Virus record (IMG/VR): IMGVR_UViG_3300042259_000129
Source of the DNA: a virus
Taxonomy: Duplodnaviria; Heunggongvirae; Uroviricota; Caudoviricetes
Direction: 5' to 3' (one strand)
DNA length: 64,000 nt
The notes below the pieces were generated by a model. The model did not search any database. It saw only the letters and a list, made by a program, of their open reading frames with translations, and was not told the DNA's origin. The position numbers and the translations under genes are program-made. Positions 26,704 through 42,700 of the stretch are shown here, one piece after another (within the stretch, counting starts at the first letter, position 1; every line of letters starts with the position of its first letter).

Positions 26704-27528
26704 ATGGCTACTCCCGCTACTACCACTTTCAATCCCTTCTTTGAAGTAGAACGTACCCCTGTTTTTGCAAAGTATGGGAACAAGGAAATTCAGTTGGCAA
26801 AGGATGTTCTTATCAATACTGAAACCGGACGCCCTGTGGGTATGGTTGGTAAGGATTATAAGGTTATTACTAATAATGAAGTCAACGAGCTTTTTGGAGA
26901 AGCCTTCTCGAAGTACAAGGTTAAGCAGACCATGGATTTCATTAAGAAGGGTGGGGAAACTTGGGTTCGTCGAATCGTCTTCGAAGATGATGAACTGACT
27001 TTCGAAGTTGCTAATGGCGATATTTCCCATGTTATGCTTGAAATTTATAACGGATTTAATACAACCATCCGATATGGATATAATCTCAGCCTTTTCAGGA
27101 GCATCTGTTCCAATGGAATGGTTTTTGGTAAAAAGAATCTCTTTGGATTAAATTTCACTCACAACTCAGATCAGCTCGAAACAATTCGATCCACATTTGA
27201 AATTGGTGCTAAGTCCATTGGCGAAGAAATTATCCCGATTTGGCAGAAGTGGACGAAGATCCCTCATACCATGAATGATATGGAAGTTTTCCTTGATTCT
27301 CGTGATTATGTCAATAATGACAAGATGAAGGAAAGAATCCTTGTAACTTATGAAGAAGTGATGAATCGTGAAAAACATGATGAAACCCGATTTGGTGCAT
27401 TCAATGCTATCACTGAAATCATGACTCACCAGACTTCTACTCGCCGCGAAGATACTTCTAACATTTTTGGAAATGCATATCGCAAGTATGAAAGACTTGC
27501 TATGGATATGTATGCCCTTCCTATGTAA
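26704..27528 (+). CDS. DUF932-like phage/plasmid-associated protein.
   Basis: 274 aa. The N-terminal pattern FNPFFEVERTPVF...GRPVGMVGKDYKVITNNEV resembles the DUF932 family. Confidence 0.4.
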   Translation: MATPATTTFNPFFEVERTPVFAKYGNKEIQLAKDVLINTETGRPVGMVGKDYKVITNNEVNELFGEAFSKYKVKQTMDFIKKGGETWVRRIVFEDDELTFEVANGDISHVMLEIYNGFNTTIRYGYNLSLFRSICSNGMVFGKKNLFGLNFTHNSDQLETIRSTFEIGAKSIGEEIIPIWQKWTKIPHTMNDMEVFLDSRDYVNNDKMKERILVTYEEVMNREKHDETRFGAFNAITEIMTHQTSTRREDTSNIFGNAYRKYERLAMDMYALPM

Positions 27529-27553
27529 ATAAAATTTTGGGAGAGATGAACGT

Positions 27554-27745
27554 ATGGACGTCATAGCAGACCTTGAATCTGCCCTGGAAGAATCCAGCTC
27601 TCCCAATCTTTCTCTTAAAATAAAATACATTAACCTTATCAGGGAGATTGAACATGAACAAGAATTAACTAAATTTAGGTGTTTACAATATGAAATTCAC
27701 AAATTAGAAAAAGAATTATTCAAACAATATACAGAAGGAGTTTAA
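27554..27745 (+). CDS. Small hypothetical protein.
   Basis: 63-aa ORF. Confidence 0.35.
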   Translation: MDVIADLESALEESSSPNLSLKIKYINLIREIEHEQELTKFRCLQYEIHKLEKELFKQYTEGV

Positions 27746-27746
27746 A

Positions 27747-28130
27747 ATGTCACATCTTATTGAATATGTTCGTAAAAAGGGTAGAATTGTTGGATTTGAT
27801 TATGATGAAGAGGGAATTGCTACTCCTTATAGAGAAAAGGGAACTCCTTATGGGTGTCTCTATGCAAAAACATTTTGCGATCTTAATGGAGAATGCAAGA
27901 TTATAGTAGGTTGGAGTCTTTGTAATAAGAAAGATGTATTTACAAAGGATGATGCAGTGTCTATTGCCGCTGAAAGGCCTTTTGATTATGAATTTGGTTC
28001 GAAGATGCCTATTCCATCTTCTCTTGAAAAACAATTTGTTAAGTTTTGTAAACGCGCAAAGAAGTTTTATAAGCTCAATAATTTTACCCATAAGTATGTT
28101 ATCTATAAGGAAGTACCTCTCGATGTTTAA
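27747..28130 (+). CDS. Hypothetical protein.
   Basis: 127-aa ORF. Confidence 0.5.
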   Translation: MSHLIEYVRKKGRIVGFDYDEEGIATPYREKGTPYGCLYAKTFCDLNGECKIIVGWSLCNKKDVFTKDDAVSIAAERPFDYEFGSKMPIPSSLEKQFVKFCKRAKKFYKLNNFTHKYVIYKEVPLDV

Positions 28131-28479
28131 AGTTGACAAGGAAGACGGTCTTTTTACTCTAAATTCCGTCTTCCTTGTTTTTAGAGATAAAAAGCTATTA
28201 TATTTTTTAACTTTTAGAGATTTGTCTGATACATCTAAAACATTTGATGTTTGGTATATTAATGACTTTGGTAGAGTTGACTATAGTTTAATTACTGACT
28301 TTGAAATTCCTTGGAAAAAAGGTAATGATTCATTAAGTGCCAAACACGTTTCAAGAGTCATTACACAAATTGAAAAATATGGATTTGATATTTGGTTTTG
28401 GCCTGAAACAATTAAGAATCAATCTATAAAAGATTTTTATTTACAAAAGGTTAAACCTAAATTAAAATTAACTTATTAA
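28123..28479 (+). CDS. Hypothetical protein.
   Basis: 118-aa ORF from the ATG at 28123, in frame with track ORF 27934..28479. Confidence 0.45.
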   Translation: MFKVDKEDGLFTLNSVFLVFRDKKLLYFLTFRDLSDTSKTFDVWYINDFGRVDYSLITDFEIPWKKGNDSLSAKHVSRVITQIEKYGFDIWFWPETIKNQSIKDFYLQKVKPKLKLTY

Positions 28480-28485
28480 CAACAT

Positions 28486-28563
28486 GGCCCTGTAACTCAG
28501 TTGGAATAGAGTACGATCCTTCTAAGTTCGATGTCACAAGTTCGATTCTTGTCAGGGTCACCA
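28486..28563 (+). tRNA. tRNA-Arg (anticodon UCU) with an encoded CCA end.
   Basis: Manual cloverleaf fold. Acceptor GGCCCTG/CAGGGTC, D-arm ACTC..GAGT, anticodon loop CTTCTAA, T-arm ACAAG-TTCGATT-CTTGT. Confidence 0.75.
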
Positions 28564-28566
28564 TTT

Positions 28567-28640
28567 ACCCCTATAGTTCAGTTGGTTAGAACCCCCGGCT
28601 CATAACCGGAATGTCCCAAGTTCAAATCTTGGTAGGGGTA
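28567..28640 (+). tRNA. tRNA-Met or Ile2 (anticodon CAU). No encoded CCA.
   Basis: Manual cloverleaf fold. Acceptor ACCCCTA/TAGGGGT, D-arm GTTC..GAAC, anticodon loop CTCATAA, T-arm CCAAG-TTCAAAT-CTTGG. Confidence 0.7.
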
Positions 28641-28661
28641 CAATCTTCAAAGGAAAACATT

Positions 28662-28883
28662 ATGATCAGAGAAAAACAGAACAAAGAAATGATTATTGAT
28701 TTGACTGGTCCTGAAGGTAATGCCTTTTGCCTATTAGGTTATGCAAAAAGTTTTGCTAAACATCTTTCATATTCAAAAGAAGAAATCGAAGAACTGATTA
28801 GTGATATGATGAATGGTGATTATGAACATCTAGTTACTGTGTTTGATAGTCATTTTGGTCATTTTGTAATTCTGGAACGATAA
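28662..28883 (+). CDS. Small hypothetical protein.
   Basis: ATG just downstream of the tRNA-Met gene. The track ORF 28611 start lies inside the tRNA. Confidence 0.45.
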   Translation: MIREKQNKEMIIDLTGPEGNAFCLLGYAKSFAKHLSYSKEEIEELISDMMNGDYEHLVTVFDSHFGHFVILER

Positions 28884-28899
28884 AAACAGGGGGATTATT

Positions 28900-29307
28900 A
28901 TGTCTTATCCAGACCTTGATTTAATTAAAGAATACACAGATTTGTTTCTATCAAAGTCTATCACCTCACTGAAAACAACTCAAATAGTTGATCTTATTAA
29001 TCATTTAAGAGAACATAATAATGAGCTTATTAAAGAAAACAAAAGTATGAAATTGAATCCCAACAAAAATAAAAACAAGTATATTAAAATTAGTAAAAAA
29101 TTTTATAAACCTAGTGAGCAGTTATGGAATAGAATTACATTTTATATTGATGAAGAAATATGGCTTAATCATAAACGTAGTGATGTTGTATCATCGACTT
29201 CTTATTATAGACTACTGTCCCTAGCTGATGTGGTTATTAAAAACGATCAAATAATTAAATATCGTTTTGCTGATCTTGAAGATATTTTTGATAATATCCT
29301 TCTATAA
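28900..29307 (+). CDS. Hypothetical protein.
   Basis: 135-aa ORF. Confidence 0.5.
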   Translation: MSYPDLDLIKEYTDLFLSKSITSLKTTQIVDLINHLREHNNELIKENKSMKLNPNKNKNKYIKISKKFYKPSEQLWNRITFYIDEEIWLNHKRSDVVSSTSYYRLLSLADVVIKNDQIIKYRFADLEDIFDNILL

Positions 29308-29318
29308 AGGTGAATAGC

Positions 29319-29843
29319 ATGAAAGAATTTTTAGAAGATAAGATTGATGATATTGTGTGGATTTGGAAGAAAATCCAGAACTTCTATTATGATATCAAAT
29401 ATGGTATTAAAAATCTTATCATTTGGTTCCCTATTATCTGGAAAGATAGAAGCTGGGATTATTCGTATATGTTTCCTATTTGGGAAAAGAAATTTGATTT
29501 GATGATTGAATCATTCAAGAGAGGAAGCAAGTATGTTTGTGGTTGTGAAAAACACATTAAAAGATTAAAAATTTGTAAAGAAATTTGTAGAAGACAGAAA
29601 GATGATTGGTGGTATCATGAAAATGGATTTATGTTTCATGATAAGAAATGGGGAACCCTCGATTGTTCTGTAGAAAACGGATTTTTTAAAACACATCGAG
29701 AAAATGTAAAGACTCCTGAAGATGAAAAAATTGAAACCCAACAATTTTTGAATATACATAAACTTGTTGAACAACATAAGAAAGAAGATATGAATATGCT
29801 TTTAAATTACATTAACAAGTATTGGCAAAGTTGGTGGTGGTAA
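29319..29843 (+). CDS. Hypothetical Trp/Cys-rich protein.
   Basis: 175-aa ORF using TGG for Trp many times (ends ...QSWWW). Confidence 0.5.
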   Translation: MKEFLEDKIDDIVWIWKKIQNFYYDIKYGIKNLIIWFPIIWKDRSWDYSYMFPIWEKKFDLMIESFKRGSKYVCGCEKHIKRLKICKEICRRQKDDWWYHENGFMFHDKKWGTLDCSVENGFFKTHRENVKTPEDEKIETQQFLNIHKLVEQHKKEDMNMLLNYINKYWQSWWW

Positions 29844-30076
29844 TGAAAGTCTTCTGTAAAGATTGCCGATATATTGATTGGATTCCGGTAGATGGACCTC
29901 GAATGGCTGAAGCTAGATGTAAAAGGATAAAAGAATATAAACAGAGAGATACTCCTCTCGAAGTTATAACAACACCAAGATATTGTAATCCATATTCCGA
30001 CAATCTATTAAACAAATGTCCTTATTTTGAAGAAAAACAATCACTTCTAAATTGTATTTTTAATTGGAGTTGATAG
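29843..30076 (+). CDS. Small Cys-rich protein.
   Basis: CKDCRY...CKRIK...C motifs. Ends ...NWS-TGA(W)-TAG. Confidence 0.45.
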
Positions 30077-30336
30077 ATGTTTACATTTTTTAAAGAAGAT
30101 TTTTAAAACAAAACAAACTTCTGATCCGTTTATTAAGAAAGATGATTTATTTTATTTGTCATATGGTGATGGAAATCCTTTCTTTGTAGACGAATATAGA
30201 TTTGTAACAATTAAAGATGTGAAAGATGGATGGGTTTTATATGCTATGCATCCTTTAGGAAAACATAGAATGTTTCAAAATGAAACAATGGAAATTAAAG
30301 AGTTTTTAAACATTTATAAAAAGGTGGAAAAGTAAA

Positions 30337-30789
30337 ATGACAATTCAGGAACAACTACAGAAAGCTATGATTGAGGCTCTAAAGGCTGGTAATTCAATTC
30401 GTAAGGATAATATTAAATTCCTAATTGGCCAGTTTCAGACAGCATCCAAGAACAAAGAAAAAACTGTTACTGACGAAGAAGCTATTAAGATTATCAAGAA
30501 TATTGTTAAATCTGTTAAGGAAGTAACTATCCCAAATCTTATTCAGAACCCTATACAGGGAATTGGGCTAGACACACCAAATCCAAAACTCACAGAAGCA
30601 TATGATTTTATTGAACTTTGTGAATCAATTCTACCTCAAATGGCAACAGAAGAAGAAATTAGAAATTTTCTAAAAACAGTTGACTTTTCTCAGTTTAAGA
30701 ATAAGATGCAAGCTATTGGTGTTGTTACAAAACACTTTAATGGCAATGTAGATGGAAATCTTGTGAAATCTATTGTAATGGAGATGTAA
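30337..30789 (+). CDS. GatB/YqeY-domain protein.
   Basis: MTIQEQLQKAMIEALKAGNSIRKDNIKFLIGQFQTASKN... follows the YqeY family pattern. Confidence 0.6.
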   Translation: MTIQEQLQKAMIEALKAGNSIRKDNIKFLIGQFQTASKNKEKTVTDEEAIKIIKNIVKSVKEVTIPNLIQNPIQGIGLDTPNPKLTEAYDFIELCESILPQMATEEEIRNFLKTVDFSQFKNKMQAIGVVTKHFNGNVDGNLVKSIVMEM

Positions 30790-30791
30790 AA

Positions 30792-30980
30792 ATGAGTAAG
30801 TATGCATTTACTTTTGGTTGTGGTCAAAAACACGCAAATTGTTATGTTGTGATTGAAGGGTCTTTTGATGAATCCCGAAAAAGAATGTTTGAAATGTATG
30901 GCCCTGAATGGTCTTTCCAGTATGAATATGATGATAACTTTTTAGAAATTGCTAATAAATGGCGATGGAGGGAAATCTAG
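30792..30980 (+). CDS. Small hypothetical protein.
   Basis: 62-aa ORF. Confidence 0.4.
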   Translation: MSKYAFTFGCGQKHANCYVVIEGSFDESRKRMFEMYGPEWSFQYEYDDNFLEIANKWRWREI

Positions 30981-30981
30981 A

Positions 30982-31344
30982 ATGACCATTGATAACATTG
31001 ATGAACTCTACGAGGAAATTAAAAAGTTAAAATTAAAGCAGAAAGAAATTTTTGATTATATTTCCGTATATATTAAAAACAAAAGCATTCCTATTAATGA
31101 GAGATGGGATATGTTTCGTAACAATGAAGATATGTTTCCTAAATCTGAGTGGATTATTCATTACAAAGAATTAGAAAGTAATAATATAAACTACTATGAC
31201 GATTTCAACTACGAGAGACATGAAACAGTTAATTTAGTAAATTTGGTTGAACGTGTAGAAGATTACGATCTTGATATTGATATTGACAAATTGAAGGAAG
31301 AGGTATTAGAACATGGATATTCCAACTTTAATTTTGATTGGTAA
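30982..31344 (+). CDS. Hypothetical acidic protein.
   Basis: GGAGGG ribosome-binding site, then ATG 30982. Confidence 0.5.
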   Translation: MTIDNIDELYEEIKKLKLKQKEIFDYISVYIKNKSIPINERWDMFRNNEDMFPKSEWIIHYKELESNNINYYDDFNYERHETVNLVNLVERVEDYDLDIDIDKLKEEVLEHGYSNFNFDW

Positions 31345-31364
31345 TGAGGATAATTATGAATGAC

Positions 31365-31571
31365 TATGTTAAGTTGTATGTATGGGGGGCTATTCTTTTG
31401 TGTGTGTTTGCTTTTTCGTTTGGGTATGCTGCGCCCTATCTAATTTCGGCTGCAAACACTGAACTTTTTTTCCTTGGGGTGTTTACAATTGCTGTATCCC
31501 CAATTATGATTGCTTTTATCATTATGAAGAAGATTTTACCTATTGTTAGAAAACTTAAATCAAAGGAGTAG
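31365..31571 (+). CDS. Small two-transmembrane-helix membrane protein. Possibly an NfeD-like partner of the SPFH protein.
   Basis: Two hydrophobic helices in a 68-aa ORF immediately upstream of the SPFH gene. Confidence 0.45.
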   Translation, partial: YVKLYVWGAILLCVFAFSFGYAAPYLISAANTELFFLGVFTIAVSPIMIAFIIMKKILPIVRKLKSKE

Positions 31572-31574
31572 TTT

Positions 31575-32432
31575 ATGAAAAATCTTGTTTATCTAATTCT
31601 GTTTATGGTGTTGACTTTTGGAAGTGTAGCTTGTACCAAAGTACCTTCTGGCAATGTTGGTGTGAAGGTTTATCTTCTTGGTGGAAATAAAGGGGTTGAC
31701 ACTGAAGAGCTTGGTGTTGGACGATATTGGATTGGTTGGAATGAAGAACTATATATTTTTCCAACATATACTCAGAATTATGTTTGGTCTGCAGATTCTC
31801 GTGAAGGTTCTCCTGATGATGAATCAATTACGTTTCAGACAAAGGAAGGTCTTTCTGTAAATGCTGATATTGGTATTGCGTATCACATTGATCCAAATAA
31901 GGTTAATGATATTTTCCAGAAGTATCGTAAGGGTGTAGAAGAAATTACTGACATTTATCTAAGGAATATTGTGCGAGATGCTTTTGTCGTAGCATCTTCA
32001 AATAAGCCTGTTGAATTTGTTTATGGTGAAGGTAAGGCTGCTCTTCGTGATGAAGTTGAATCAATTGTAAAGAGTAAGGTTGAACCTATTGGTATTATTA
32101 TTGAACAGATTTCCTTTGTTGGTGATCTTCGTCTTCCTGGATCCGTAATTACAGCACTTAACGCTAAAATTGAGGCCACGCAGACTGCACAAAGGGTTGA
32201 AAATCAAGTCCGCGAAGCTGAAGCCGAGGCCCGTAAGAAAATTGCTGCCGCACAAGGCGAGGCAGAATCTATTAAGCTTGTAGCTCTTGCACAGGCCGAA
32301 GCAAATAAAATCCTATCTAACTCAATTACTGCTACTCTTGTTGAATATAAACGAATTGAAAAGTGGAACGGAATTATGCCAACATATATGGCAGGAACAA
32401 TGCCGTCCCCGATGCTATCGATTAAAGAATAA
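31575..32432 (+). CDS. SPFH/band-7 (stomatin/prohibitin/HflK-C-like) protein with a lipoprotein-type signal.
   Basis: Signal peptide and lipobox (TFGSVAC), an SPFH core, and a C-terminal Ala/Glu-rich coiled coil (REAEAEARKKIAAAQGEAE). Confidence 0.65.
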   Translation: MKNLVYLILFMVLTFGSVACTKVPSGNVGVKVYLLGGNKGVDTEELGVGRYWIGWNEELYIFPTYTQNYVWSADSREGSPDDESITFQTKEGLSVNADIGIAYHIDPNKVNDIFQKYRKGVEEITDIYLRNIVRDAFVVASSNKPVEFVYGEGKAALRDEVESIVKSKVEPIGIIIEQISFVGDLRLPGSVITALNAKIEATQTAQRVENQVREAEAEARKKIAAAQGEAESIKLVALAQAEANKILSNSITATLVEYKRIEKWNGIMPTYMAGTMPSPMLSIKE

Positions 32433-32505
32433 AGAATTTTATTTACAATAGATAAGTGGCTTGATAGATTATTTTTATCAAGTCACTTTTAATATTGGAG
32501 TTCAT

Positions 32506-32898
32506 ATGTCTTATCAAATTAAAATTTATTATCGCGCCGGAGATTCTTTCTCAACATCTGATGAGACTTCTATTCTTGAGTATGAATGGAAGAATCTTGA
32601 TATTGCTAAAAAGAATCTAAAAAGAATCAAAGCACATTACGAATGGTTTACATATGCAACCCAACCTCCTCATGTAAATGAAGAGAAATGGTTAAAAAAT
32701 GTTCCTAAGTTTTGCGTTAAAGCAACTTTTTATAAAGCAACTTCAAGATATGATTATGCTATCAAATTACTTCATGATGATGGAGAAAGAGAATATCAAC
32801 TTTATCCATTTTGGTGTGGTTACTATGAACATTTATATGGTGCAAAAATTGTAATTGATTCAGAAGATAAAGATATGTCATTTGGTGATGTAAATTAA
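32506..32898 (+). CDS. Hypothetical protein.
   Basis: GGAG ribosome-binding site before ATG 32506. Confidence 0.45.
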   Translation: MSYQIKIYYRAGDSFSTSDETSILEYEWKNLDIAKKNLKRIKAHYEWFTYATQPPHVNEEKWLKNVPKFCVKATFYKATSRYDYAIKLLHDDGEREYQLYPFWCGYYEHLYGAKIVIDSEDKDMSFGDVN

Positions 32899-32911
32899 GG
32901 GGGTGTAAATT

Positions 32912-33205
32912 ATGGCAACATGGCATAATGGTGGCTGGGATTTTGTTGAGGTTGGAAAAAGATACCAATATAAAGAATCCGGTCTTATTGGTGAAATTGA
33001 AATATTAGAAGACAATTCCACGGATGATGAATATTCTTTTAAAGTTAAATTTGTAAAGGCTGTATGGGATTTTGGTGACACGCCTTTTTGTATTTCAGCA
33101 TCAAAATCCTTAAACGCATATTATAATGGTATGGTTAACATTTATGAGCATGAAGAATATTATATTCCAAATGGATATAAGTATAACTATGAGGAATTCA
33201 AATAA
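32912..33205 (+). CDS. Hypothetical protein.
   Basis: 97-aa ORF. Confidence 0.45.
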   Translation: MATWHNGGWDFVEVGKRYQYKESGLIGEIEILEDNSTDDEYSFKVKFVKAVWDFGDTPFCISASKSLNAYYNGMVNIYEHEEYYIPNGYKYNYEEFK

Positions 33206-33621
33206 TGATAATCAATGAAACTCAGGGAAACCTGTTCAATTTTGTTAAAAAAGATACTGTGGTTGCTCATTGTATTGCAGCAGATGCTGAAATGGGTGCT
33301 GGTATTGCGGTTGATTTTGTGAAAAATTATCCACAAATTAAAAGACTTCGAAATGAAGTTCTTGAAGTAGGGAAAACTTATTATGTTTCCCCAGTATTAA
33401 ATATTGTAACAAAAAGACGAAGTTCCGGTAAACCCTCTTATGAGTCTATGTGCTTTGCACTCCAAAATATGGCAGAGGTAATGAGAAATAACATCATTAC
33501 AGAAGTCTATATGCCTAAAATTGGTTGTGGGCTTGATAGGTTATCTTGGCCCGCAGTTAAGGAACAACTTAAATATGTATTTGGAGACAGTGAGGTAACT
33601 TTTAATGTCTACTATCTATAA
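33205..33621 (+). CDS. Macro-domain protein (ADP-ribose binding/hydrolase).
   Basis: QGNLFNF...DTVVAHCIAADAEMGAGIAVDF...KIGCGLDRLSW follows the Macro-domain signature (GNLx...D.IVNAAN..L..GGGV...I). Confidence 0.7.
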   Translation: MIINETQGNLFNFVKKDTVVAHCIAADAEMGAGIAVDFVKNYPQIKRLRNEVLEVGKTYYVSPVLNIVTKRRSSGKPSYESMCFALQNMAEVMRNNIITEVYMPKIGCGLDRLSWPAVKEQLKYVFGDSEVTFNVYYL

Positions 33622-34099
33622 TATATTTGATGAAAACAGTATTGAAACTTTTAGGGGAGAACATGTCTTTCTAAGTAATTTTTATTTTTCCTTTGTTCTA
33701 TATAATGATATTGTATGGAAAACTGCTGAACATGCTTATCAAGCATCCAAAACCCTTGATCCAAAAGAGAAAAAATGGATTATAGATTGCCCTACTCCCC
33801 ATCTTGTCAAAGAAATAGGGAAGAAATTGACATTAAGAGAAGATTGGAATAATGTAAAAGTTCAAATAATGAGAGACATTATATATGAAAAATTTGAATA
33901 TAATAAGAGTATTAAAGAAAAACTTATAGCAACACACCCCTATATATTAATCGAAGGAAACTTATGGCATGATAATTTTTGGGGTGTATGTAAATGTGAA
34001 AAATGTAAAAAAGTAAAAGTAAAACATAATCATCTAGGCTTTATTTTAATGGAATTAAGAAACCGTTATGTAAATGAAAATTTGTTTTTTAAGGAATAA
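33605..34099 (+). CDS. NADAR-domain protein (YbiA/DUF1768 family; ADP-ribose processing or reversal of DNA ADP-ribosylation).
   Basis: FRGEHVFLSNFY...WKTAEHAYQASK...LIEGNLWHDNFWGVC...HLGFILMELR matches the NADAR conserved pattern (F.G.Y.FLSNF...EH.YQA.K...W..K...GxN.LG.iLM.vR). Confidence 0.7.
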   Translation: MSTIYNIFDENSIETFRGEHVFLSNFYFSFVLYNDIVWKTAEHAYQASKTLDPKEKKWIIDCPTPHLVKEIGKKLTLREDWNNVKVQIMRDIIYEKFEYNKSIKEKLIATHPYILIEGNLWHDNFWGVCKCEKCKKVKVKHNHLGFILMELRNRYVNENLFFKE

Positions 34100-34102
34100 T
34101 AA

Positions 34103-36130
34103 ATGTCTATAATTCATTTAGAAGAAGTCAAGATAAAGAATTTTCTATCATATGGATCTAATGTTTCAACATTTAAAATTGACCACGGGCTGACTTTGAT
34201 CTCAGGGCAAAACAAGGATACTTCACGATCAAATGGAGCAGGGAAATCTGGTTTAAATGAAAGTATTGTTTGGGCATTGTTTGGCAAAACAATTAAAGAT
34301 ATTACTAAAGATCAAATAGTAAATTGGAAGAATAAGAAAAAATGCTTGGTAGAAATTTCATTCTCTATTGATGGGATTAAATATAGGATTGAACGAGGAA
34401 TCAAACCTAATGTTCTAAAAATTTACAAGGGCGATAAAGAACTTGATTCTTTAGCTTCTGTCACAGATTTTCAAAAATATCTCGAAGAAGAAATTTTGAA
34501 AATTGATTACAAAACCTTTATTTCCTTGTTCTATTATAATCCAAATAACTTCGTTTCAATCTTTGATATTCCTAAAGCTCAGAAAAGAAAATTTCTAGAG
34601 AACATTTTCAATCTTGAAGCATACTCAGATATAAAGAATAAGATTAATAAAAAAGTTTCTAATATTGATAGTGCAATATTAGAGAACAAAACTTCTGTTT
34701 CGAAAAATGAAGAGAGAATTTCTTCATTAGAAATAAATGTTTCAAAATACACTTCTGATATTCGAAGTATTGACATTTCAGATACTCACTTACAGTTACT
34801 TCAGGAACAACTCAACGATATCCCGGATGATCTTCCTTCAAAAGAAGATATTGAGAAATATGAACAAAAGATTAAAGATATTGAAGTAGTTAAAAATAAA
34901 GCTGAAATAGCTTTTTCAGAAAAGAATGCTCTTCTAAAGGGAATTAGTTATGACCCTAATGCTGCTGACAAGTTAGAAGAATGTAAGAAGAATTTTACTA
35001 GTGTAAACTACGATGAGGAACTTGAAAAGCTTCTTTATGATGAGTGTTTCGATTATAAGGTAAAGAAAGAATCCATCCTTTCAGATCTGAAAAAGGTCTC
35101 ACAAAAAGGGCAATATGAAGATCTTGATAATTGTCCTATTTGTGGATCTAAAATGAATAATGAATCTATTAGAGAACACAAAGCAAAAGAAAAAGATAGA
35201 TTAAACAAGGAGCTTACTGAAGTAGAAGAAAAGGAAAACCTCCTTATTTCTAAGCATAATGATATTAAAAAATCTAATATGGATTATAAGTATTATGAAT
35301 CTGAAATTGAAAGATTAACAAAAGTAATTGAAGAAAATAGTAAGTATTTAGAGATTATGGAATCTATTAAGACTCTAAAGGAAACAAAAGAAAAATTCTC
35401 TAATACTGTATTTAATTGCAATTCAAAATTGAAAGAAATGAAGGAAAGGGCCTCATTGTACAATAGAGATCTTCTTCTTTCTCAGATTGAAAATGAAAAA
35501 AATAGAATTGAAGAAAGAAAAGCTCAGATTGAGAAGCTTGAAGAATACAAAGCAAATGCTATTTCTGAACTGAGTCTTCTGAAGAGTGAAAATGTTGAAC
35601 TCAAAAAGAAGAATACTAATCTTAGTCTTTTGAAGGATTATTATTCCTTCCTGAAGAAGCTCTGTGGTGATGACCAGATTAAGCAATATGCCATTAGTAG
35701 TCTAGTACCTATCATTAACCAGAGAGCTAACCATTACCTCTCAGAGGCAGCCGTAGGGTTTTATATCAAGCTTGATGGATGGCTGGATTGTGAAATCAAG
35801 GGAGCTGGAATTTCTAATGCAACAGCCAGTAGTCTTTCCGGGGGAGAAAAGAAATCTTTAGAATTGGCTCTTCAATTTGCTCTTTATGACATTTCAAAAT
35901 TAAAATGCAAAAATCTCCCAAACATTCTTATTCTTGATGAAATTTTGGATTCTTCTGTAGATGTTAAAGGTATTGAAAATCTTATGAATATTGTAACTAT
36001 CAAACAACGTGAAGACAATCTTGCTACATTCATTGTTTCTCATAGAAAAGAAATTAGTTCGTTTACATTTGATCGTAGGTTTAATATTATTAAATCTAAT
36101 GGATATAGCTCTATTAAGGAGGAAGTATAA
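34103..36130 (+). CDS. gp46: Recombination-related ATPase gp46-like (Rad50/SbcC).
   Basis: Walker A GQNKDTSRSNGAGKSG, zinc hook CPICG, ABC signature LSGGEKKSLELAL, Walker B ILILDEILD. 675 aa with no TGA. Confidence 0.8.
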   Translation: MSIIHLEEVKIKNFLSYGSNVSTFKIDHGLTLISGQNKDTSRSNGAGKSGLNESIVWALFGKTIKDITKDQIVNWKNKKKCLVEISFSIDGIKYRIERGIKPNVLKIYKGDKELDSLASVTDFQKYLEEEILKIDYKTFISLFYYNPNNFVSIFDIPKAQKRKFLENIFNLEAYSDIKNKINKKVSNIDSAILENKTSVSKNEERISSLEINVSKYTSDIRSIDISDTHLQLLQEQLNDIPDDLPSKEDIEKYEQKIKDIEVVKNKAEIAFSEKNALLKGISYDPNAADKLEECKKNFTSVNYDEELEKLLYDECFDYKVKKESILSDLKKVSQKGQYEDLDNCPICGSKMNNESIREHKAKEKDRLNKELTEVEEKENLLISKHNDIKKSNMDYKYYESEIERLTKVIEENSKYLEIMESIKTLKETKEKFSNTVFNCNSKLKEMKERASLYNRDLLLSQIENEKNRIEERKAQIEKLEEYKANAISELSLLKSENVELKKKNTNLSLLKDYYSFLKKLCGDDQIKQYAISSLVPIINQRANHYLSEAAVGFYIKLDGWLDCEIKGAGISNATASSLSGGEKKSLELALQFALYDISKLKCKNLPNILILDEILDSSVDVKGIENLMNIVTIKQREDNLATFIVSHRKEISSFTFDRRFNIIKSNGYSSIKEEV

Positions 36131-36576
36131 TGGATGAATGGAAGCGGGGGTTATCAGATGTAGAAATTACAAAAAGAATTTGGGATATCGTTAAAGATGA
36201 TAAGTATCTAGGTAAAGAGCTTGCTTATTATAATGAGGAAAATGAAGTAATATCCCTTTTAGATGGAAATTTAACTTTAACTGTCTTTGAAAATGATATT
36301 ATTATTGGATTCTCTTGTGAATTAGATTCTGCTAAAAGAATTATTGCTATATATACTTATCTAAGTGGTCTTATACATATTAAAGATTTAAAAATTGTTG
36401 ATGAATATTACATTTCATTTGATGAAAATGATATGCCAGAAATGTTATATGGCCATGAAGCAAGAATGAAATTTTTACAAGATAAATGTTTTAATGTTTT
36501 TAAAAATTTATTAGAAAATAAAAATATGAAAGATTATTTAGAAGATCTTAATATTGAAGATATGTATAAATGTTAA
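36130..36576 (+). CDS. Hypothetical protein.
   Basis: 148-aa ORF overlapping the gp46 stop (TAATGG). Confidence 0.5.
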   Translation: MDEWKRGLSDVEITKRIWDIVKDDKYLGKELAYYNEENEVISLLDGNLTLTVFENDIIIGFSCELDSAKRIIAIYTYLSGLIHIKDLKIVDEYYISFDENDMPEMLYGHEARMKFLQDKCFNVFKNLLENKNMKDYLEDLNIEDMYKC

Positions 36577-36588
36577 GGAGAAAAAAAT

Positions 36589-37638
36589 ATGACAACATTA
36601 AAAGAATTGAAAGCTAAAATTAATAAAAAAGTTAAGGGTGTACATTGTGAAATTTTAAGTGATAGTGAAATCATGAATTGTGATTCTTGAATCAGTACCC
36701 CAAGTTATGATTTAAATAGAATTATTTCTGGGGATCTTTTTAAGGGGCTGCCTGTTAGATCTATGAATTTTTTAGCTGGCATGGAAGCATCTTTTAAATC
36801 TTCATTTGCATGTATCTGTGCAGCTAATTCACAAAAAGAAGGATATAAAGTAATTATCATAGATACTGAAGGGGGACTATCAGGGGAATTTGTAAAAAGA
36901 TGGGGTCTAGACCCTGATGAGATATTATATATTTATGAACCAATTGTAGATAATGTAAGCTCTATTTTTGGACAATTACTTGAAGAAGAAGATGAAAAAT
37001 TTTTAATTATTTTAGATTCTATTGGCGGTCTTGAATCAAATAAACTTCTATCAGATGCTTCAGATGGAAATGTTAAATCAGATCAAGGTGGCCTCGCAAG
37101 AAAAATTAAGCAAATGATGAAGTTATTCACCACAATCATTAAAAAGAAAAGTTCCATTGGTATTTATACCGGGCATACATACGGAAGTCCAAATGCTGGT
37201 CTTTATGCTACTGAAGAAGAAATAGGTGGTGGTAAAGCTTGTAAATATTTAGCCGATTGTATTATTATGCTCAAAAAGTCAAAGAAATATGATAAAGATA
37301 AAACAGTAATTGGAAATGTAGTTAAAGCATACACGTTAAAAAATAGATTTTACCCTGCATTTAATAGATGTGAGGTTGATATTGATTATGTACATGGTAT
37401 TAACAAAGTTCATGGTATGTTTGATTTAGCTGAAAAATTTGGATTTATTACTAAGGCAGGGGCTGGTTGATGTACAAATGTTATAACAGGTGAAAAAGTT
37501 CAGGGAATCGAAAAAACTATTCCATGATTTAACAGGGAAATGTTAGAAAAAATAAATAATGAACTTAAAGCTACTGGATATAGTACGATCGATGAAGAAC
37601 TTAAGGAATCACTAAAAGATGTTTCTTTAGAAGAATAA
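36589..37638 (+). CDS. uvsX: UvsX-like RecA-family recombinase, with 3 TGA.
   Basis: Walker-like FLAGMEASFKSSF, then ...FGFITKAGAG[TGA]CTNV aligning with T4 UvsX LGFVVKPKNGWYAREF. Confidence 0.8.
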
Positions 37639-37696: not shown

Positions 37697-39187
37697 ATGT
37701 CAATAATATGTCTTATATGCAATATAGAATGTAAATCTATGAAAGCACTTAAAACACATTTAACAAAAAAACATAATATATCTTTTAAATTTTATTATGA
37801 TAATAATCTTAAAGTAGATAATATGGACGGTATATGTAAGTTATGTAAAACAAATGAAACATATTTTATAAGTTCTTCTGGCAAATATAAACCATTGTGC
37901 GAAAAATGCGGCAAATCCAGGAGTATTCATGCACTAAAAATTTTATATGGAGAGGAAGAAGGAACTAGAAGATACAATGAAATCTGTGCTGGTTGTAGTA
38001 GAGACTTAGCATTCTTCACCAACAAATATGGAGAGGAAGAAGGAACTAGAAGATACAATGAATGAGTTAATAAAACAAAAAATAATAAACAAAATTTTAT
38101 AAAACGACACGGGGAAGAAGAAGGATTAAAGAAATATGACGAATATTGTTTATCAAAATCTTTATCTAAAGAAAAATTTATTTATAAGCATGGAGAGGAA
38201 GAAGGAACTAGAAGATACAATGAATGATCAAAATCACATCTTACATTAGAAGAATATATATCAAAGCATGGAGAGGAAGAAGGAACTAGAAGATACAATG
38301 AATGAGTAAATTCTGCTAAAAATTCCAAAGAAAACTTTATTATTAGATATGGAGAGGAAGAAGGATTAAAGAAATATAATGAATATTGTAATAAAGTTGG
38401 CTGTGGTTTAAACAATTTGATTAGAATATATGGAGAGGAAGAAGGAACTAGAAGATATAAAGAAGTTTGCAGTAACAAAAAAGGCATTGGCTCTTTAAAA
38501 TATTGTATTAATAGATACGGAAAGGAAGAAGGAGCTTCTTTTTATAATAGATGAAGTAAGTCTAGTGTGCCTACATTAGATAATATGATTAGAATATATG
38601 GAAAGGAAGAAGGAACTAGAAGACATACCATATTTAGAGAAAAATCAAAACAAAATTTACACAATTTTATAGATAGATATGGAGAAGATGAGGGCATAAA
38701 AAGATATAATTTGTTTTGTGAAAGATCATCAGGAAATACTAGGTCGGTTTCCAAAGAATCCTTAAAGTTATTTTATGAATTGATAGATTGATTATTTGAA
38801 GAGAATATTGCAGATTTTAAAGATATTAAATGTGGTATACCAGAAAGTTCTGAATTGTGTATAACATACAATAATAGAAAAAATAGATTTATGTTTGATT
38901 TTACATTATTTGATAAACTTATAATAGAATATAATGGCAATGGATCTCATGTAAGAGATACATGATCTATAGATAAAAAAGAACAATGAAGGCATGTTTG
39001 AGACAAAGAATGTGACTATATTAAAGCACTTGAAAGGGACGCCTTTAAAAATAATATCGCTATTAATGCTGGTTATAAAATTCTTACTGTATGAGCAGAA
39101 GATAAATTTGAAGAAAATTTAAAGTTATGTAAAAAATTTATATTGGAAGAAATGATTGATGAAGAAACTGGAGAAGTAATTCTCTAA
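37697..39187 (+). CDS. Zinc-finger protein with 11 tandem YGEEEGTRRYNEW-type repeats and a C-terminal Vsr/DUF559-like (PD-(D/E)XK) endonuclease-type domain. About 497 aa.
   Basis: N-terminal CLICNIEC...H..H and CKLCK...CEKCGK. Repeats xxYGEEEG(T/L)(R/K)(R/K)YNE(W/Y). C-terminal FDFTLFDKLIIEYNGNGSHV...ILTVWAED. Confidence 0.55.
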
Positions 39188-39778: not shown

Positions 39779-42700
39779 TTAACCTTTACATTCATCAACT
39801 AACATCAGAAACTGAGAATATAAACCTTCGGGGTCATCTACCATAAACTCATCAGTAAATGGAACTCGAACTACACCATTAAGATCTTTATCCGTATGGA
39901 AGGTTATACCGATACCAAACTGATTTGAATCAACATACATCTTGTTAGATTTCTTAATAACTTTCTTTTCAAAATCTTCCCAAGGCATAATTTCTTTAGC
40001 AGTTGGTACTGTACACTGATGAAACACAAATGTAATAACATTTTTACTTTTAATCATTTCTTGCTCCTGAAGATAATCTGCAAATCGTTTAAAATACTTG
40101 TTTTCTTTTAAAGCATTAGGATATTTAGCTTTAAGTTCTTTAATTCTTTTCTTATTTGTGAACATTACTTTATGAGCTTTTACAATGTTAATTTGAGCTT
40201 GAGGTCAACAAATTGCTCATTCGGGAGAACGAATTGAGTCGTTTCCGGTACCTGCAACATGATGATGAAGTCCATAATCCCCTAGATTTACTTCACATTC
40301 ATAGATTGTCCCAACTGTTCCTTCTCTTCTTGAGTAACCATCATCTCCAAGATATTGAGCAGCCTTTTCAATAACATTAGTTACATAAATTCCACCAACA
40401 GTATCTATTGTTCTCCAATGATATAAATCTGTTGGATAATCACTATATGTAACTCGTTTACCAGATTCTCGTGATGATACAGGAAAATATCCATTTTCTA
40501 AATATTCAATATAATCATTAGACTCTTCAATAGCATCTCCATCACTTTTAGGTTTAACTAAAAGCATATTATGAATATCAAGCATTCTGCCAACAGTAGA
40601 AGAATCGTTTGCAGGAATAACAGTAAACCCAAATCTTAAAATAAAGTTTGATGCTGTTAATCCTGAAGCATGGAAAGCTGGAATAAGTTCACTAGCTCCA
40701 AATCTTGTTCTAAATTGATCAAATTCAGGATATTTCATATTAACATTAAAGGATTCAATAAATTCAACAGCAGAATTTCCATGTTTTCCATTATAATATT
40801 TAGAATATTCAACAGACTTTTCATTAAGCTGATCTTGAGTTTCCTCAATTTTTTCCAAATTGATATCTGGAATGAGAGCATCTCCCTTTAATACTTGTTC
40901 AACACGCACAAAGTAATCTGCCCATTTTTCTCTTGGCTTCTTTCTAAGCATTGCTCCCTTAAATTCAAAGTTATTATATTTCAATAATGTTTTGATTCTA
41001 GAAGGGGTTAATTTAATTGAGGGTTTTAAAGGGTTATCATCATTGAAAATATCTTTTAATAGTGGATAAATCAAAAGTTGATCTTTCAATGTATTAACTA
41101 ATGAATTAGCAATTTTATTAGGAAATGCATCTAATAGATCATCAAGTTTTTGAAGTTTATCTTTATCAGATAACATATCTAACATGATATATTCAAGACT
41201 ATTGGTCTTATTTAAAAGTCTTTTACCAGAACTAATTTTATCCCAAACCCCTTGAACATTATCATTCTTAAAATATTCTATTAGGGCATCTACTCCATAA
41301 TCGTCATATAACTTTCCAATCATGAAAGAATTTCGATCTAAATATTCCGCAATATTTTCAGTAGCTTCCTTAGATGTATAGTATCCTGCTCTATTAAGAT
41401 ATTTTAATCTTCAATCATTATCTTCATGATTTAATAAGAAATCATTTATTTTGTCTTTTGAATCGAAATATTCTAAGGCAAAAGATTTTTTTAATTCATC
41501 TTGTTCATATACCGGAAAGTTATATACATAATCATATACATTTTTTTTATATCTTTCATCGTCCATATTGTCTGCTAAAAATTGTTGAACAAAAGCTTTA
41601 TCTAAAAATCCTTTCGAAATTAAATAATTAAAATCTCTTAGAATATGAAGACCTGAAATCTTAATTTTATATTTTACATGTTCTAACCATATATCTTTAT
41701 ATGAATTAAAAGTTTTTAAATTAAACCTATAGTCTTTAACTGAAAAGAAACCATATGTACTATCATCATTCTCTTTAATTATAGTTTTAATGGCTGCGTC
41801 TATCTTTATGCTTTTTGATAAATCATAATCACTATTTTCAAAATATTTAATAAAATTCTGTAATCTGTATGCTACTATTTTATTTAAATCTATAAACAAA
41901 TCGGGGTTCTTAAATATAAAATCTGCTTCAATTCCCCAATTTTGCACCGTACTCATATCGAACTTATCATCTATTAATTTTGTTAATAGTGTATAAAAAA
42001 GTAGAAACTCAGGCATAGATGTATTAAGCTTCCTAAAAATATTTTTAATAACTTTAACTTCGCCAATAATATATTTGGGGTGATAATTGTTTTTTGAGTC
42101 TCTTTCTATAGTTTTGACCAAATACGCAAATTTGGTCCAGTTTCCTTTATATGCAAAATAATTCAAACAATAAAGTCCAACCAAACTAAATTCTTCTCGT
42201 TCACTAATATAAACATCTATCCATTTAAATCCTGGGCCAGTCTCAAGTGCAAGATCCTCAATCAAATATGAATGATCTGTTTGATATTCTTTATGTAAAA
42301 AAAATGCCAAAGTAAGATACTTTCTAAGATCATCATTACTTGATTTTACTCGTTCAATAAATTCAGAATATGGTAAATTATAGTGTTCAATATATTCTTT
42401 TAAAGTTCAATTATTATCTTTCAAATGTTTTAAATAAAATTCATGAAAGGAGGTTGGATTTGTTCTCTTCACTAACTCAGAATTAAGAATTTCATATGAT
42501 AATTTATCACCAATTTTGTCTTTAAGTGTCAACATTGAATCAGCTCATCTATATGCTGCACTTTTTTTATCATCTAATAAAATCCATTTTTTTGCTATTT
42601 CTTTTGATGATCTACTCTCAATAGAAATCACAACATTTATAGTATCCAAAGTCATATATTCAGCAAAATGCCCTAAATAATCTACAATTTCAATTTTTTG

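What the first reader, a model, noticed from the sequence alone, without database searches (positions are those of the whole stretch)
33205..34099. Adjacent Macro-domain and NADAR-domain genes: candidate counter-defence module reversing DNA ADP-ribosylation
Two small, overlapping genes encode a Macro domain (33205..33621) and a NADAR/YbiA domain (33605..34099). Macro domains (DarG-type) remove ADP-ribose from thymidine, and NADAR domains from guanine. Both marks are laid down by DarT-family toxins used in antiphage defence. A phage carrying both erasers back to back would be a broad anti-DarT, or ADP-ribose-detoxifying, cassette.
Basis: partly seen in the sequence, partly recalled or inferred. 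Interest (0 to 1): 0.7.

Follow-up and report, generated by a model that had tools for sequence, protein, structure and literature searches.

The report
Phage Macro–NADAR ADP-ribose eraser pair
A distant T4-like phage carries two small back-to-back genes for enzymes that strip ADP-ribose off molecules (a TARG1-type macrodomain and a YbiA-type NADAR), most likely to undo host ADP-ribosylation of its DNA; this is plausible but untested here, and phage T4 is already known to carry one eraser of each type.

Summary
ORFs 33205..33621 (138 aa) and 33605..34099 (164 aa) overlap by 17 nt, each has a Shine-Dalgarno motif, and they sit directly upstream of a gp46/SbcC-like gene.

ORF1 fails Pfam Macro (17 bits against a cutoff of 22) but is a full-length TARG1/OARD1-type macrodomain: E 1.4e-23, TM 0.91, with the catalytic Lys and Asp invariant. 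DarG macrodomains are the next-best structural match. ORF2 is a clear NADAR (92 bits) of the YbiA type, with all catalytic residues present. It is neither the DarT1-linked type nor the T4 gp30.3 type.

The anti-DarT reading is plausible but not new. T4 needs tk.4 (macro, AdfM) against DarTG2 and 30.3 (NADAR, AdfN) against DarTG1. Macro/NADAR co-occurrence in DNA viruses was reported in 2022.

The tight pairing is specific to this lineage: only 2 of 79 other viral macro loci have a NADAR nearby. Within the clade the slot is a mosaic. Macro is conserved, three NADAR alleles (40–47% identical) have been swapped in, one relative lacks NADAR, and one has Macro cut by a TnpB element. A rival role in soluble ADP-ribose or NAD metabolism is not excluded.

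Verdict: new member of a known kind, modest interest. The phage also reads TGA as Trp.

The parts
33205..33621 (+). TARG1/OARD1-type macrodomain gene (138 aa). Predicted ADP-ribosyl hydrolase with catalytic Lys70 (aligned to TARG1 K84 and DarG K80) and Asp111 (aligned to TARG1 D125).
   Evidence: ORF. phmmer against PDB finds TARG1 at E 1.4e-23 over residues 6-137. Pfam Macro scores only 17 bits against a cutoff of 22. phrog_335 E 3e-24. K70, D111 and G107/G109 are invariant in 61 homologues. AF2 pLDDT 95.2. Foldseek: TARG1 TM 0.91, DarG macrodomains TM 0.81-0.82. dN/dS 0.07 against L087.
33605..34099 (+). YbiA-type NADAR gene (164 aa). Predicted N-glycosidase or ADP-ribosyl hydrolase with E42, K49, E117, D123 and W126, plus a subfamily-specific CxCxxC motif (C129, C131, C134).
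33605..33621 (+). 17-nt overlap between the end of Macro and the start of NADAR. A GAGG Shine-Dalgarno motif for NADAR lies at 33592-33595, inside Macro. This suggests co-transcription and possibly coupled translation.
   Evidence: Read directly from the sequence. The same overlap is present in relative L001. In L087 and L252 the genes are separated by 11-13 nt.
32912..33205 (+). orf97, a small upstream gene of unknown function whose stop overlaps the Macro start by 1 nt. It is conserved upstream of Macro in relatives.
   Evidence: No Pfam or PHROG hit. tblastn shows homologues upstream of Macro in L087, L251 and L252 at 53-80% identity.
34103..36130 (+). gp46/SbcC-like recombination nuclease subunit, starting 3 nt after the NADAR stop. 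It marks the conserved right border of the variable slot.
   Evidence: phrog_77 E 2e-103; Pfam AAA_23 and SMC_N. 65-85% identical in relatives.
32454..32488 (+). 15-pair hairpin (terminator-like) directly after the SPFH/Band-7 gene. It lies just upstream of the co-directional gene string containing orf97, Macro, NADAR, gp46 and orf148; it overlaps the listed TTG start of orf145 (32461).
   Evidence: Promoter-like matches in the region were not above the shuffled expectation (39 found against a mean of 44.4), so no promoter is claimed.

Best explanation
These are two independent, co-transcribed ADP-ribose erasers in an accessory slot of a T4-like phage, between the SPFH gene and gp46.

The TARG1-type macrodomain would use its conserved Lys70/Asp111 site to remove ADP-ribose from thymine in single-stranded DNA (the DarT2-type mark). 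It may also act on phosphate-end ADP-ribose. The YbiA-type NADAR would cleave the N-glycosidic link of ADP-ribose to guanine (the DarT1-type mark, and pierisin/ScARP-like marks), and possibly to cytosine.

Expressed together with the recombination and replication genes (gp46, UvsX, UvsW), they would clear host-inflicted ADP-ribose from replicating phage DNA so that replication can proceed.

What is shown here: the domain identities, the intact catalytic residues, purifying selection, the operon-like packing, and the turnover of the locus among relatives. What is inferred: the substrates, the timing of expression, and the counter-defence role.
For: 1. The Macro is 36-37% identical to TARG1 over its full length, TM 0.91, with DarG macrodomains as the next structural neighbours.
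2. TARG1 removes thymidine-ADPr and rescues E. coli from DarT in a K84-dependent way (PMC8501950). The equivalent K70 is invariant in the family.
3. The NADAR keeps the residues equivalent to PnNADAR E43, K50, E125, D130 and W133.
4. Every NADAR subtype tested, including YbiA and T4 gp30.3, hydrolyses guanosine-ADPr in vitro (PMC11125620). YbiA-type enzymes also remove cytidine-ADPr (PMC12945103).
5. Three phylogenetically distinct phage NADARs restore plaquing on DarTG1 hosts (PMC11825919).
6. T4 needs tk.4 (macro) against DarTG2 and 30.3 (NADAR) against DarTG1 (bioRxiv 10.1101/2025.11.20.689424). The window Macro is a distant homologue of the Tk.4 family (30% identity, E 4e-11).
7. The locus behaves like an accessory counter-defence slot. 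Three NADAR alleles only 40-47% identical sit between a Macro that is 75-85% identical and a gp46 that is 81-85% identical in those same relatives. One relative has no NADAR, and one has a TnpB-truncated Macro.
8. An independent linkage of a TARG1-like macro with a NADAR and a PARG exists in Bacillales operons.
9. The genes lie in a block free of TGA codons (0 TGA against 38 TGG; p 1e-9), so it can be translated under the standard code as well as code 4. This is compatible with early expression.
Against: No biochemical or genetic test was possible.

The NADAR is YbiA-type, and E. coli YbiA did not protect cells from DarT1 despite its in vitro activity (PMC11125620). NCBIfam would name it a riboflavin-intermediate N-glycosidase.

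Homologues of both genes occur in other phages next to NAD-salvage genes: L131 has NADAR after PncB-like and NadE-like genes, and L254 has Macro near NAMPT. The Bacillales operon is linked to an NrtR-type regulator. These contexts fit soluble ADPr/NAD metabolism as well.

The host is unknown, so it is unknown whether it carries DarT-like systems.

Macro and NADAR are not linked in 77 of 79 other viral macro loci.

The L001 NADAR carries two TGA codons, so the TGA-free status is not a fixed property of the gene.
Confidence: 0.5

Rival explanations
1. Soluble ADP-ribose or NAD metabolite processing. The pair degrades or recycles low-molecular-weight ADPr derivatives made during infection. These could be immune signals or toxins, or they could feed NAD+ restoration. 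Candidates are O-acetyl-ADPr, ADPr-1''-phosphate, cyclic ADPr isomers from TIR/Thoeris-type defences, or products of NADase defences. The target would not be DNA adducts.
For: Iyer et al. 2022 argued this for most phage Macro and NADAR domains. They noted NADAR in NAD-salvage neighbourhoods and Macro/NADAR/SLOG/Nudix co-occurrence (PMC9503650). TARG1 is also the O-acetyl-ADP-ribose deacetylase OARD1, as named in the PDB. phrog_335 is annotated 'phosphatase'. L131 has NADAR directly after what look, by eye, like PncB and NadE genes. L254 has a Macro homologue (57% identical) about 2 kb from NAMPT. The Bacillales operon starts with an NrtR-type Nudix regulator. L087 has a Nudix gene about 4 kb downstream.
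Against: No NAD-salvage, Nudix or SLOG gene lies within 10 kb of the pair in the window. The neighbours are DNA recombination and replication genes. The experimentally established in vivo roles of phage NADAR and phage macro proteins so far are DNA de-ADP-ribosylation.
Confidence: 0.25
2. A partner for the phage's own ADP-ribosyltransferase. The erasers would limit, reverse or time modifications made by a phage-encoded ART (Alt/Mod-like or PARP-like), or protect the phage from it.
For: In L035 a TARG1-like macro gene is immediately followed by a protein that looks, by eye, like WGR plus a PARP-like domain. In Streptomyces phages the macro match lies under genes annotated as ADP-ribosyltransferase. 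Iyer et al. 2022 note NADARs expressed with ARTs in T4-like phages.
Against: No ART domain was found in the window by Pfam, either in the ten genes around the pair or in the ten largest ORFs. An H-Y-E-like motif that I saw by eye in the 1401-aa ORF has no support from Pfam, PHROG annotation or PDB sequences. In T4 the NADAR and macro phenotypes are explained by host DarTG, not by Alt/Mod. Only 64 kb of a roughly 137-165 kb genome was available, so absence is not proven.
Confidence: 0.08
3. Chance neighbours. These are two unrelated accessory genes that happen to sit side by side in a hypervariable slot, with no shared selective reason. This includes the possibility that the NADAR is a YbiA-like metabolic damage-control N-glycosidase acting on riboflavin intermediates.
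For: Only 2 of 79 viral macro loci and 3 of 80 viral NADAR loci have the partner within 6 kb. My rough estimate of the chance rate for a 12-kb window in large myoviruses is similar, using the 27% NADAR prevalence in Iyer 2022. Each gene is lost independently in relatives. The NADAR passes the TIGR02464 cutoff.
Against: Three different NADAR alleles were retained or re-acquired at the same position next to the conserved Macro. There is an independent Macro-NADAR(-PARG) operon in about four Bacillales lineages. Macro-NADAR fusions and non-random co-occurrence have been published. There are no riboflavin genes nearby.
Confidence: 0.12

Closest known systems
Phage T4 AdfM (Tk.4, macrodomain, anti-DarTG2) together with AdfN (gp30.3, NADAR, anti-DarTG1)
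   Same: One T4-type phage carries one macrodomain eraser and one NADAR eraser, both small single-domain orphan proteins. The window Macro is a distant homologue of the Tk.4 family (30% identity, E 4e-11).
   Different: In T4 the two genes are at separate loci: 30.3 is at about 128 kb, and the macro lies between vs and tk as seen in a Mosigvirus. Here they overlap. The Tk.4-like protein lacks the TARG1 Lys and Asp at the aligned positions. The window NADAR is only 20% identical to gp30.3 (E 0.89) and has Glu where T4-type NADARs have His.
Human TARG1/OARD1 (C6orf130)
   Same: Best sequence and structure match: 36-37% identity and TM 0.91, with K84 and D125 conserved as K70 and D111. TARG1 reverses DarT thymidine-ADPr.
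   Different: It is a eukaryotic DNA-repair and protein de-ADP-ribosylation enzyme. The phage protein's substrates are untested.
DarG / DarG2 antitoxin macrodomain (T. aquaticus, M. tuberculosis) and PhiKZ AdfM (gp104)
   Same: Same macrodomain clade: TM 0.81-0.82, and the only NCBIfam hit is the DarG model.
   Different: 18-23% identity. The NCBIfam score is 42.9 against a cutoff of 250. There is no C-terminal DarT-binding domain and no adjacent DarT. There is only a 16-residue local match to PhiKZ gp104.
E. coli YbiA and the myxobacterial YbiA-YarT antitoxin pair
   Different: It is phage-encoded. It carries a CxCxxC insertion that YbiA lacks. YbiA did not rescue DarT1 toxicity in cells.
Viral Macro/NADAR(/SLOG/Nudix) neighbourhoods and tandem Macro-NADAR fusion proteins (Iyer, Burroughs, Aravind et al. 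2022)
   Same: The same two domain families, linked in DNA-virus genomes, standalone and thought to be deployed early.
   Different: Here they are two separate overlapping genes with no SLOG or Nudix gene adjacent. That survey favoured soluble ADPr-derivative substrates.
Bacillales NrtR-NADAR-PARG-Macro operon
   Same: A TARG1-like macro (about 42% identical) is co-oriented and near or adjacent to a NADAR.
   Different: It is chromosomal, includes a PARG and an NrtR-type regulator, and its NADAR belongs to a more distant subgroup (A2 HMM about 50 bits). I did not find it described in the papers I read.

Membership tests
Macro domain (Pfam PF01661) | Score at or above the Pfam gathering threshold | tested here: not met
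   17 bits against a cutoff of 22, covering only residues 64-119. Many homologues in the family do pass PF01661.
Macro domain (fold level) | Macrodomain alpha/beta fold with an ADP-ribose binding cleft | tested here: met
   AF2 pLDDT 95.2. 202 PDB macrodomain-type matches at E<=0.001, the top ones being TARG1, DarG, Poa1p and viral macrodomains.
TARG1/OARD1-type macrodomain | Full-length sequence and structural similarity to TARG1 | tested here: met
   phmmer E 1.4e-23 over residues 6-137. 36-37% identity and TM 0.91.
TARG1/OARD1-type macrodomain | Catalytic lysine (TARG1 K84, equivalent to DarG K80) | tested here: met
   K70 in 'IVTKRRS' aligns with 'ITKKRAS' and is invariant in 61 homologues. 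The role of K84/K80 is taken from PMC8501950.
TARG1/OARD1-type macrodomain | Catalytic aspartate (TARG1 D125, from my own knowledge of Sharifi et al. 2013) in the GCGLD loop | tested here: met
   D111 in 'IGCGLDRLSW' is identical to the TARG1 'IGCGLDRLQW' motif and is invariant.
TARG1/OARD1-type macrodomain | ADP-ribosyl hydrolase activity on Glu-, thymidine- or phosphate-linked ADPr, or on O-acetyl-ADPr | not testable with these tools
   Requires an enzyme assay.
DarG (DarTG2 antitoxin) | NCBIfam equivalog NF048014 at or above its cutoff | tested here: not met
   42.9 bits against a cutoff of 250. Only the macro part of the model (positions 1-146 of 338) is matched.
DarG (DarTG2 antitoxin) | C-terminal DarT-binding domain and an adjacent DarT toxin gene | tested here: not met
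   The protein is a single 138-aa domain. No ART or DarT family appears among the neighbouring genes.
AdfM (phage anti-DarT2 macrodomain) | Homology to PhiKZ gp104 or T4 Tk.4, and protection from DarTG2 | tested here: inconclusive
   30% identity and E 4e-11 to a Tk.4-like Mosigvirus protein. Only a 16-residue match to gp104. Protection cannot be tested here.
NADAR (Pfam PF08719) | Score at or above the gathering threshold, and the NADAR fold | tested here: met
NADAR (catalytic core) | Residues equivalent to PnNADAR E43 and K50 (E. coli C7 E88/K95; T4 AdfN E36/K43) | tested here: met
   E42 and K49 correspond by the alignment to 8bau and are invariant in 59 homologues. Their roles are taken from PMC11543638 and PMC11825919.
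YbiA family of NADAR | Glutamate at the PnNADAR E125 position (Asp in the BC4488/DarT1-linked family, His in T4-type phage NADARs), and a core fold without an N-terminal extension | tested here: met
   E117 aligns to that Glu and is nearly invariant. TIGR02464 scores 83.8 against 73.7. The best sequence and structure match is YbiA. The criterion is from PMC11543638.
DarG1 (DarT1-linked NADAR antitoxin) | Asp at the catalytic position, a basic N-terminal extension, and an adjacent DarT1 gene | tested here: not met
AdfN, T4 type (gp30.3, Pfam PF08010) | Sequence membership of the gp30.3 family | tested here: not met
   20% identity and pairwise E 0.89 to T4 gp30.3. There is no PF08010 hit.
AdfN in the functional sense (any phage NADAR that counters DarTG1) | Removes G-ADPr from DNA and restores plaquing on DarTG1 hosts | not testable with these tools
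   Requires plaque and dot-blot assays like those in PMC11825919.

The most novel reading that the evidence does not exclude
The slot upstream of gp46 is an arms-race hot spot. A conserved TARG1-type macrodomain is kept while the neighbouring NADAR is repeatedly exchanged for divergent alleles. At least three alleles, 40-47% identical, sit in phages whose flanking genes are 75-85% identical. The exchanges would track diverse host guanine- or cytosine-directed ADP-ribosyltransferases. Together the pair would form a broad-spectrum repair module for nucleic-acid ADP-ribosylation (T, G, C, and possibly phosphate ends). It would be a phage counterpart of the Bacillales NrtR-NADAR-PARG-Macro operon, placed in the code-neutral (TGA-free) gene block of a TGA-recoded T4-like phage.
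Probability: 0.2. Interest if true: 0.55.

Novelty: new member of a known kind. Interest (0 to 1): 0.35.

Why it matters
If the pair is active on ADP-ribosylated DNA, two things follow. Phage anti-DarT erasers would not be limited to the DarG2-like (PhiKZ) and Tk.4 macro types or to the T4, Bas32 and Bas60 NADAR types. Phages could also bundle both base specificities into one transcription unit.

The TARG1-type and YbiA-type enzymes are compact (138 and 164 aa), and they could be tested as tools or as probes of which host ARTs act on phage DNA.

The allele turnover at the NADAR position offers a natural experiment on specificity. This could help with a known puzzle: some NADARs, such as YbiA and T4 AdfN, work in vitro but not as antitoxins in uninfected cells.

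The concept itself is already established, so the gain is incremental.

Tried and rejected
- Megablast of the locus against 50,697 phage records gave no match. The phage is only distantly T4-like; its gp46 is at most about 29% identical to cyanophage homologues.
- The promoter scan was not above the shuffled expectation, so no promoter is claimed.
- I tested whether Macro-NADAR adjacency is a general viral module. It is not: 2 of 79 and 3 of 80 loci have the partner within 6 kb, and none are adjacent.
- The L001 NADAR first looked like a pseudogene because of two in-frame stops. I rejected that: both stops are TGA at conserved Trp codons, and the clade uses code 4.
- I suspected an H-Y-E ADP-ribosyltransferase motif at the C-terminus of the 1401-aa ORF. 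Pfam, PHROG annotation and PDB sequence searches give no support.
- I tried to identify the small ORF (orfX) that relatives carry between NADAR and gp46. There is no significant Pfam, PHROG or PDB hit.
- I looked for published descriptions of the Bacillales NrtR-NADAR-PARG-Macro operon in PMC11833690 and found none.
- I considered a fission of a Macro-NADAR fusion protein. No fused homologues appeared among the close hits.
Full report
**Observation.** ORF1 is 33205..33621 (138 aa) and ORF2 is 33605..34099 (164 aa), both on the + strand. The second ATG lies 17 nt inside the first gene. Each start has a GAGG motif 9 nt upstream. The upstream orf97 stop overlaps the Macro ATG by 1 nt, and a gp46/SbcC-like gene starts 3 nt after the NADAR stop. 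From orf97 onward the genes therefore form a tightly packed co-directional string, just downstream of a strong hairpin that follows the SPFH gene. Promoter-like matches were not above chance, so I claim none.

**Domain assignments: NADAR.** The NADAR call is unambiguous. Pfam PF08719 gives 92 bits against a cutoff of 35.1.

**Domain assignments: Macro.** The Macro call fails the Pfam threshold, at 17 bits against 22, but it is still correct. The protein aligns end to end with human TARG1/OARD1 (E 1.4e-23). It matches phrog_335 (E 3e-24). Its AlphaFold2 model (pLDDT 95.2) superposes on TARG1 with TM 0.91. The DarG macrodomains of T. aquaticus and M. tuberculosis are the next neighbours at TM 0.81-0.82. 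In an alignment of 61 homologues, K70 and D111 are invariant. They align with TARG1 K84 and D125. K84 is the residue needed for TARG1 to reverse DarT thymidine-ADPr, and it is equivalent to DarG K80 (PMC8501950).

**Which kind of Macro.** It is not DarG itself. The only NCBIfam hit is the DarG model, but at 42.9 bits against a cutoff of 250, covering only the macro part. There is no DarT-binding domain and no DarT nearby. It shares only a 16-residue local match with PhiKZ AdfM. It is 30% identical to a T4-group Tk.4-like macro that lacks the TARG1 Lys and Asp at the aligned positions.

**What is already known.** DarT2 marks thymine and is reversed by DarG and TARG1-type macrodomains. DarT1 marks guanine and is reversed by NADARs. 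All NADAR subtypes tested, including YbiA and T4 gp30.3, remove G-ADPr in vitro and none removes T-ADPr. However, YbiA and gp30.3 did not rescue cells from DarT1 (PMC11125620). YbiA-type enzymes also remove cytidine-ADPr. T4 gp30.3 (AdfN) and two unrelated phage NADARs (Bas32, Bas60) counter DarTG1 during infection (PMC11825919). PhiKZ gp104 (AdfM) counters DarTG2 (PMC13309987). A transposon screen showed that T4 tk.4, a macrodomain, is needed against DarTG2, while 30.3 is needed against DarTG1 (bioRxiv 10.1101/2025.11.20.689424). So one phage with both erasers is an established situation. Iyer et al. 2022 had also already reported non-random co-occurrence, conserved neighbourhoods and even fusions of Macro and NADAR in DNA viruses. 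They proposed mostly soluble ADPr-derivative substrates.

**Is the adjacency a module?** Across viruses in general it is not. Of 79 independent IMG/VR loci with a TARG1-like macro, 2 have a NADAR within 6 kb. Of 80 NADAR loci, 3 have a macro. None are adjacent.

**The slot within this phage clade.** The slot between the SPFH gene and gp46 is a mosaic:

| Locus | Content of the slot |
|---|---|
| Window | Macro + NADAR allele A |
| L001 | Macro cut to residues 65-138 with a TnpB element directly upstream, intact NADAR-A, extra small ORF (orfX) |
| L087 | Macro (85% identical) + NADAR-B (only 40% identical) + orfX |
| L252 | Macro (75% identical) + NADAR-C (45% to A, 47% to B) |
| L251 | Macro (79% identical) followed directly by gp46, with no NADAR |

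At the nucleotide level, window/L087 similarity runs through Macro into the first ~80 nt of NADAR. It then vanishes, and resumes at the first base of gp46. NADAR has therefore been replaced in place at least twice and lost once, while Macro (dN/dS 0.07) and gp46 stay conserved. This pattern argues that a NADAR is repeatedly favoured at this position. It also shows that the two enzymes are not obligate partners, and that the locus turns over like accessory counter-defence genes.

**An independent bacterial linkage.** In bacterial genomes, 20 of 78 TARG1-like macro loci have a co-oriented NADAR within about 1.3 kb. All are Bacillales, representing about four lineages. They form operons of the type NrtR-like regulator, NADAR, PARG, Macro.

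**Mechanism.** I think the most likely reading (about 0.5) is that these are two independent erasers of base-linked ADP-ribose on phage nucleic acid. They would be made together with the recombination and replication proteins. Macro would act on thymine (DarT2-type) marks and NADAR on guanine or cytosine (DarT1-, ScARP- or YarT-type) marks.

**Main rival.** The main rival (about 0.25) is processing of soluble ADPr or NAD derivatives. Several observations support it. Homologues sit next to NAD-salvage genes in other phages (L131, L254). The Bacillales operon has an NrtR-type regulator. TARG1 also has an O-acetyl-ADPr deacetylase activity. NCBIfam names the NADAR a riboflavin-intermediate N-glycosidase.

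**Other rivals.** A writer-eraser relation with a phage ART is possible but unsupported. No ART was found in the parts of the window I scanned, although a macro/PARP-like pair exists in another phage (L035). Pure chance juxtaposition is made less likely by the allele replacements and the Bacillales operons.

**Side finding: genetic code.** This phage lineage reads TGA as Trp. UvsX in the window and in L087 carry reciprocal TGA/TGG codons at conserved Trp positions. The L001 NADAR and the L252 NADAR have TGA at invariant Trp positions. The TnpB ORFs read through a TGA into the canonical DAD-x-NAxINI motif. A 1401-codon frame with 7 in-frame TGAs matches one PHROG of 1214 positions at both ends. 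No gene in my set ends in TGA. The ten-gene block 26.7-36.6 kb that contains Macro, NADAR and gp46 has 0 TGA against 38 TGG, compared with 79 against 90 elsewhere (p 1e-9). No suppressor tRNA lies in the window.

**Verdict.** This is a new member of a known kind: phage orphan ADP-ribose erasers, and Macro/NADAR linkage. It involves different enzyme subtypes and an unusually tight arrangement. Interest is modest (0.35).

Noticed in passing
Whole window, for example 36589..37638 (+) UvsX, 39779..43984 (-), 37697..39187 (+); relatives L001, L087, L252: The phage lineage uses TGA as a Trp codon (code 4). Homologues show reciprocal TGA/TGG at conserved Trp positions. 79 in-frame TGAs occur in 41 genes and none serves as a stop. 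No suppressor tRNA lies in the window; only tRNA-Arg(TCT) and tRNA-Met are present, at 28486..28641.
   Followed up: yes
window 26704..36576 (+): A ten-gene block including Macro, NADAR and gp46 has 0 TGA against 38 TGG Trp codons, compared with 79 against 90 in the rest of the window (Fisher p 1e-9). This block can be translated under the standard code as well, as reported for early genes of recoded phages. The property is not fixed, because the L001 and L252 NADAR alleles do contain TGA.
   Followed up: partly
L087:5431-5907, L252:3382-3839, L251:3501-3940 (relatives of window 33605..34099): The NADAR position between a conserved Macro and a conserved gp46 holds three alleles only 40-47% identical to each other. 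It is empty in one relative. This indicates replacement in place and loss.
   Followed up: yes
window 16066..17103 (+) and L001:4791-5972: A TnpB (Cas12f1-like TNB domain) element is present in the window. A near-identical copy lies directly upstream of the 5'-truncated Macro gene in relative L001; orf145 and most of orf97 are also missing there. The element therefore appears to be mobile within this phage lineage.
   Followed up: partly
window 39779..43984 (-): A 1401-codon ORF with 7 in-frame TGAs was called as 4-5 genes under code 11. It matches phrog_18612 (unknown function) at both ends and has no Pfam hit. By eye, a C-terminal 'FHASG…GGIYVTN…IYECEV' pattern looked like an H-Y-E ADP-ribosyltransferase, but no search supported this.
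   Followed up: partly
L001:6707-7027, L087:5895-6233, L254:4670-4750: A conserved ORF of about 110 aa (orfX, 'KVITLCGSTKFRKEFE…') sits between NADAR and gp46 in two relatives and is absent from the window. A fragment of a homologue lies directly after a NAMPT gene in another phage contig. It has no Pfam, PHROG or PDB match.
   Followed up: partly
L174:3232-6423, L180:4160-6933, L191:5299-6423 (Paenibacillus, Brevibacillus): Bacillales chromosomes carry an operon with an NrtR-type Nudix/wHTH regulator, a NADAR, a microbial PARG and a TARG1-like macro. That is three different ADP-ribose erasers together. In Brevibacillus it is followed by a protein with a CdiA-CT RNase A-like toxin domain. I did not find this described in the papers I read.
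   Followed up: partly
L035:6001-7583; L131:3930-6441; L254:838-4652: Other phage contexts of the same families differ. One has a TARG1-like macro directly followed by what looks, by eye, like a WGR plus PARP-like protein. One has a NADAR directly after what look, by eye, like PncB and NadE genes. One has a macro about 2 kb from NAMPT (Pfam annotation).
   Followed up: no
L089:4533-5417: A Macro homologue 60% identical to the window protein lies next to an SSB gene in a conjugative-element-like locus (DotD, TraI, T2SSE and LPD7 domains). This would fit protection of transferred single-stranded DNA.
   Followed up: no
window 37697..39187 (+): This 496-aa ORF has 9 TGA codons and about ten repeats of a 'YGEEEGTRRYNEW'-like motif. 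It ends in '…DEETGEVIL', the same tail that ends UvsX in relative L087 but not UvsX in the window. This suggests an insertion at the 3' end of uvsX that duplicated its C-terminal tail.
   Followed up: no
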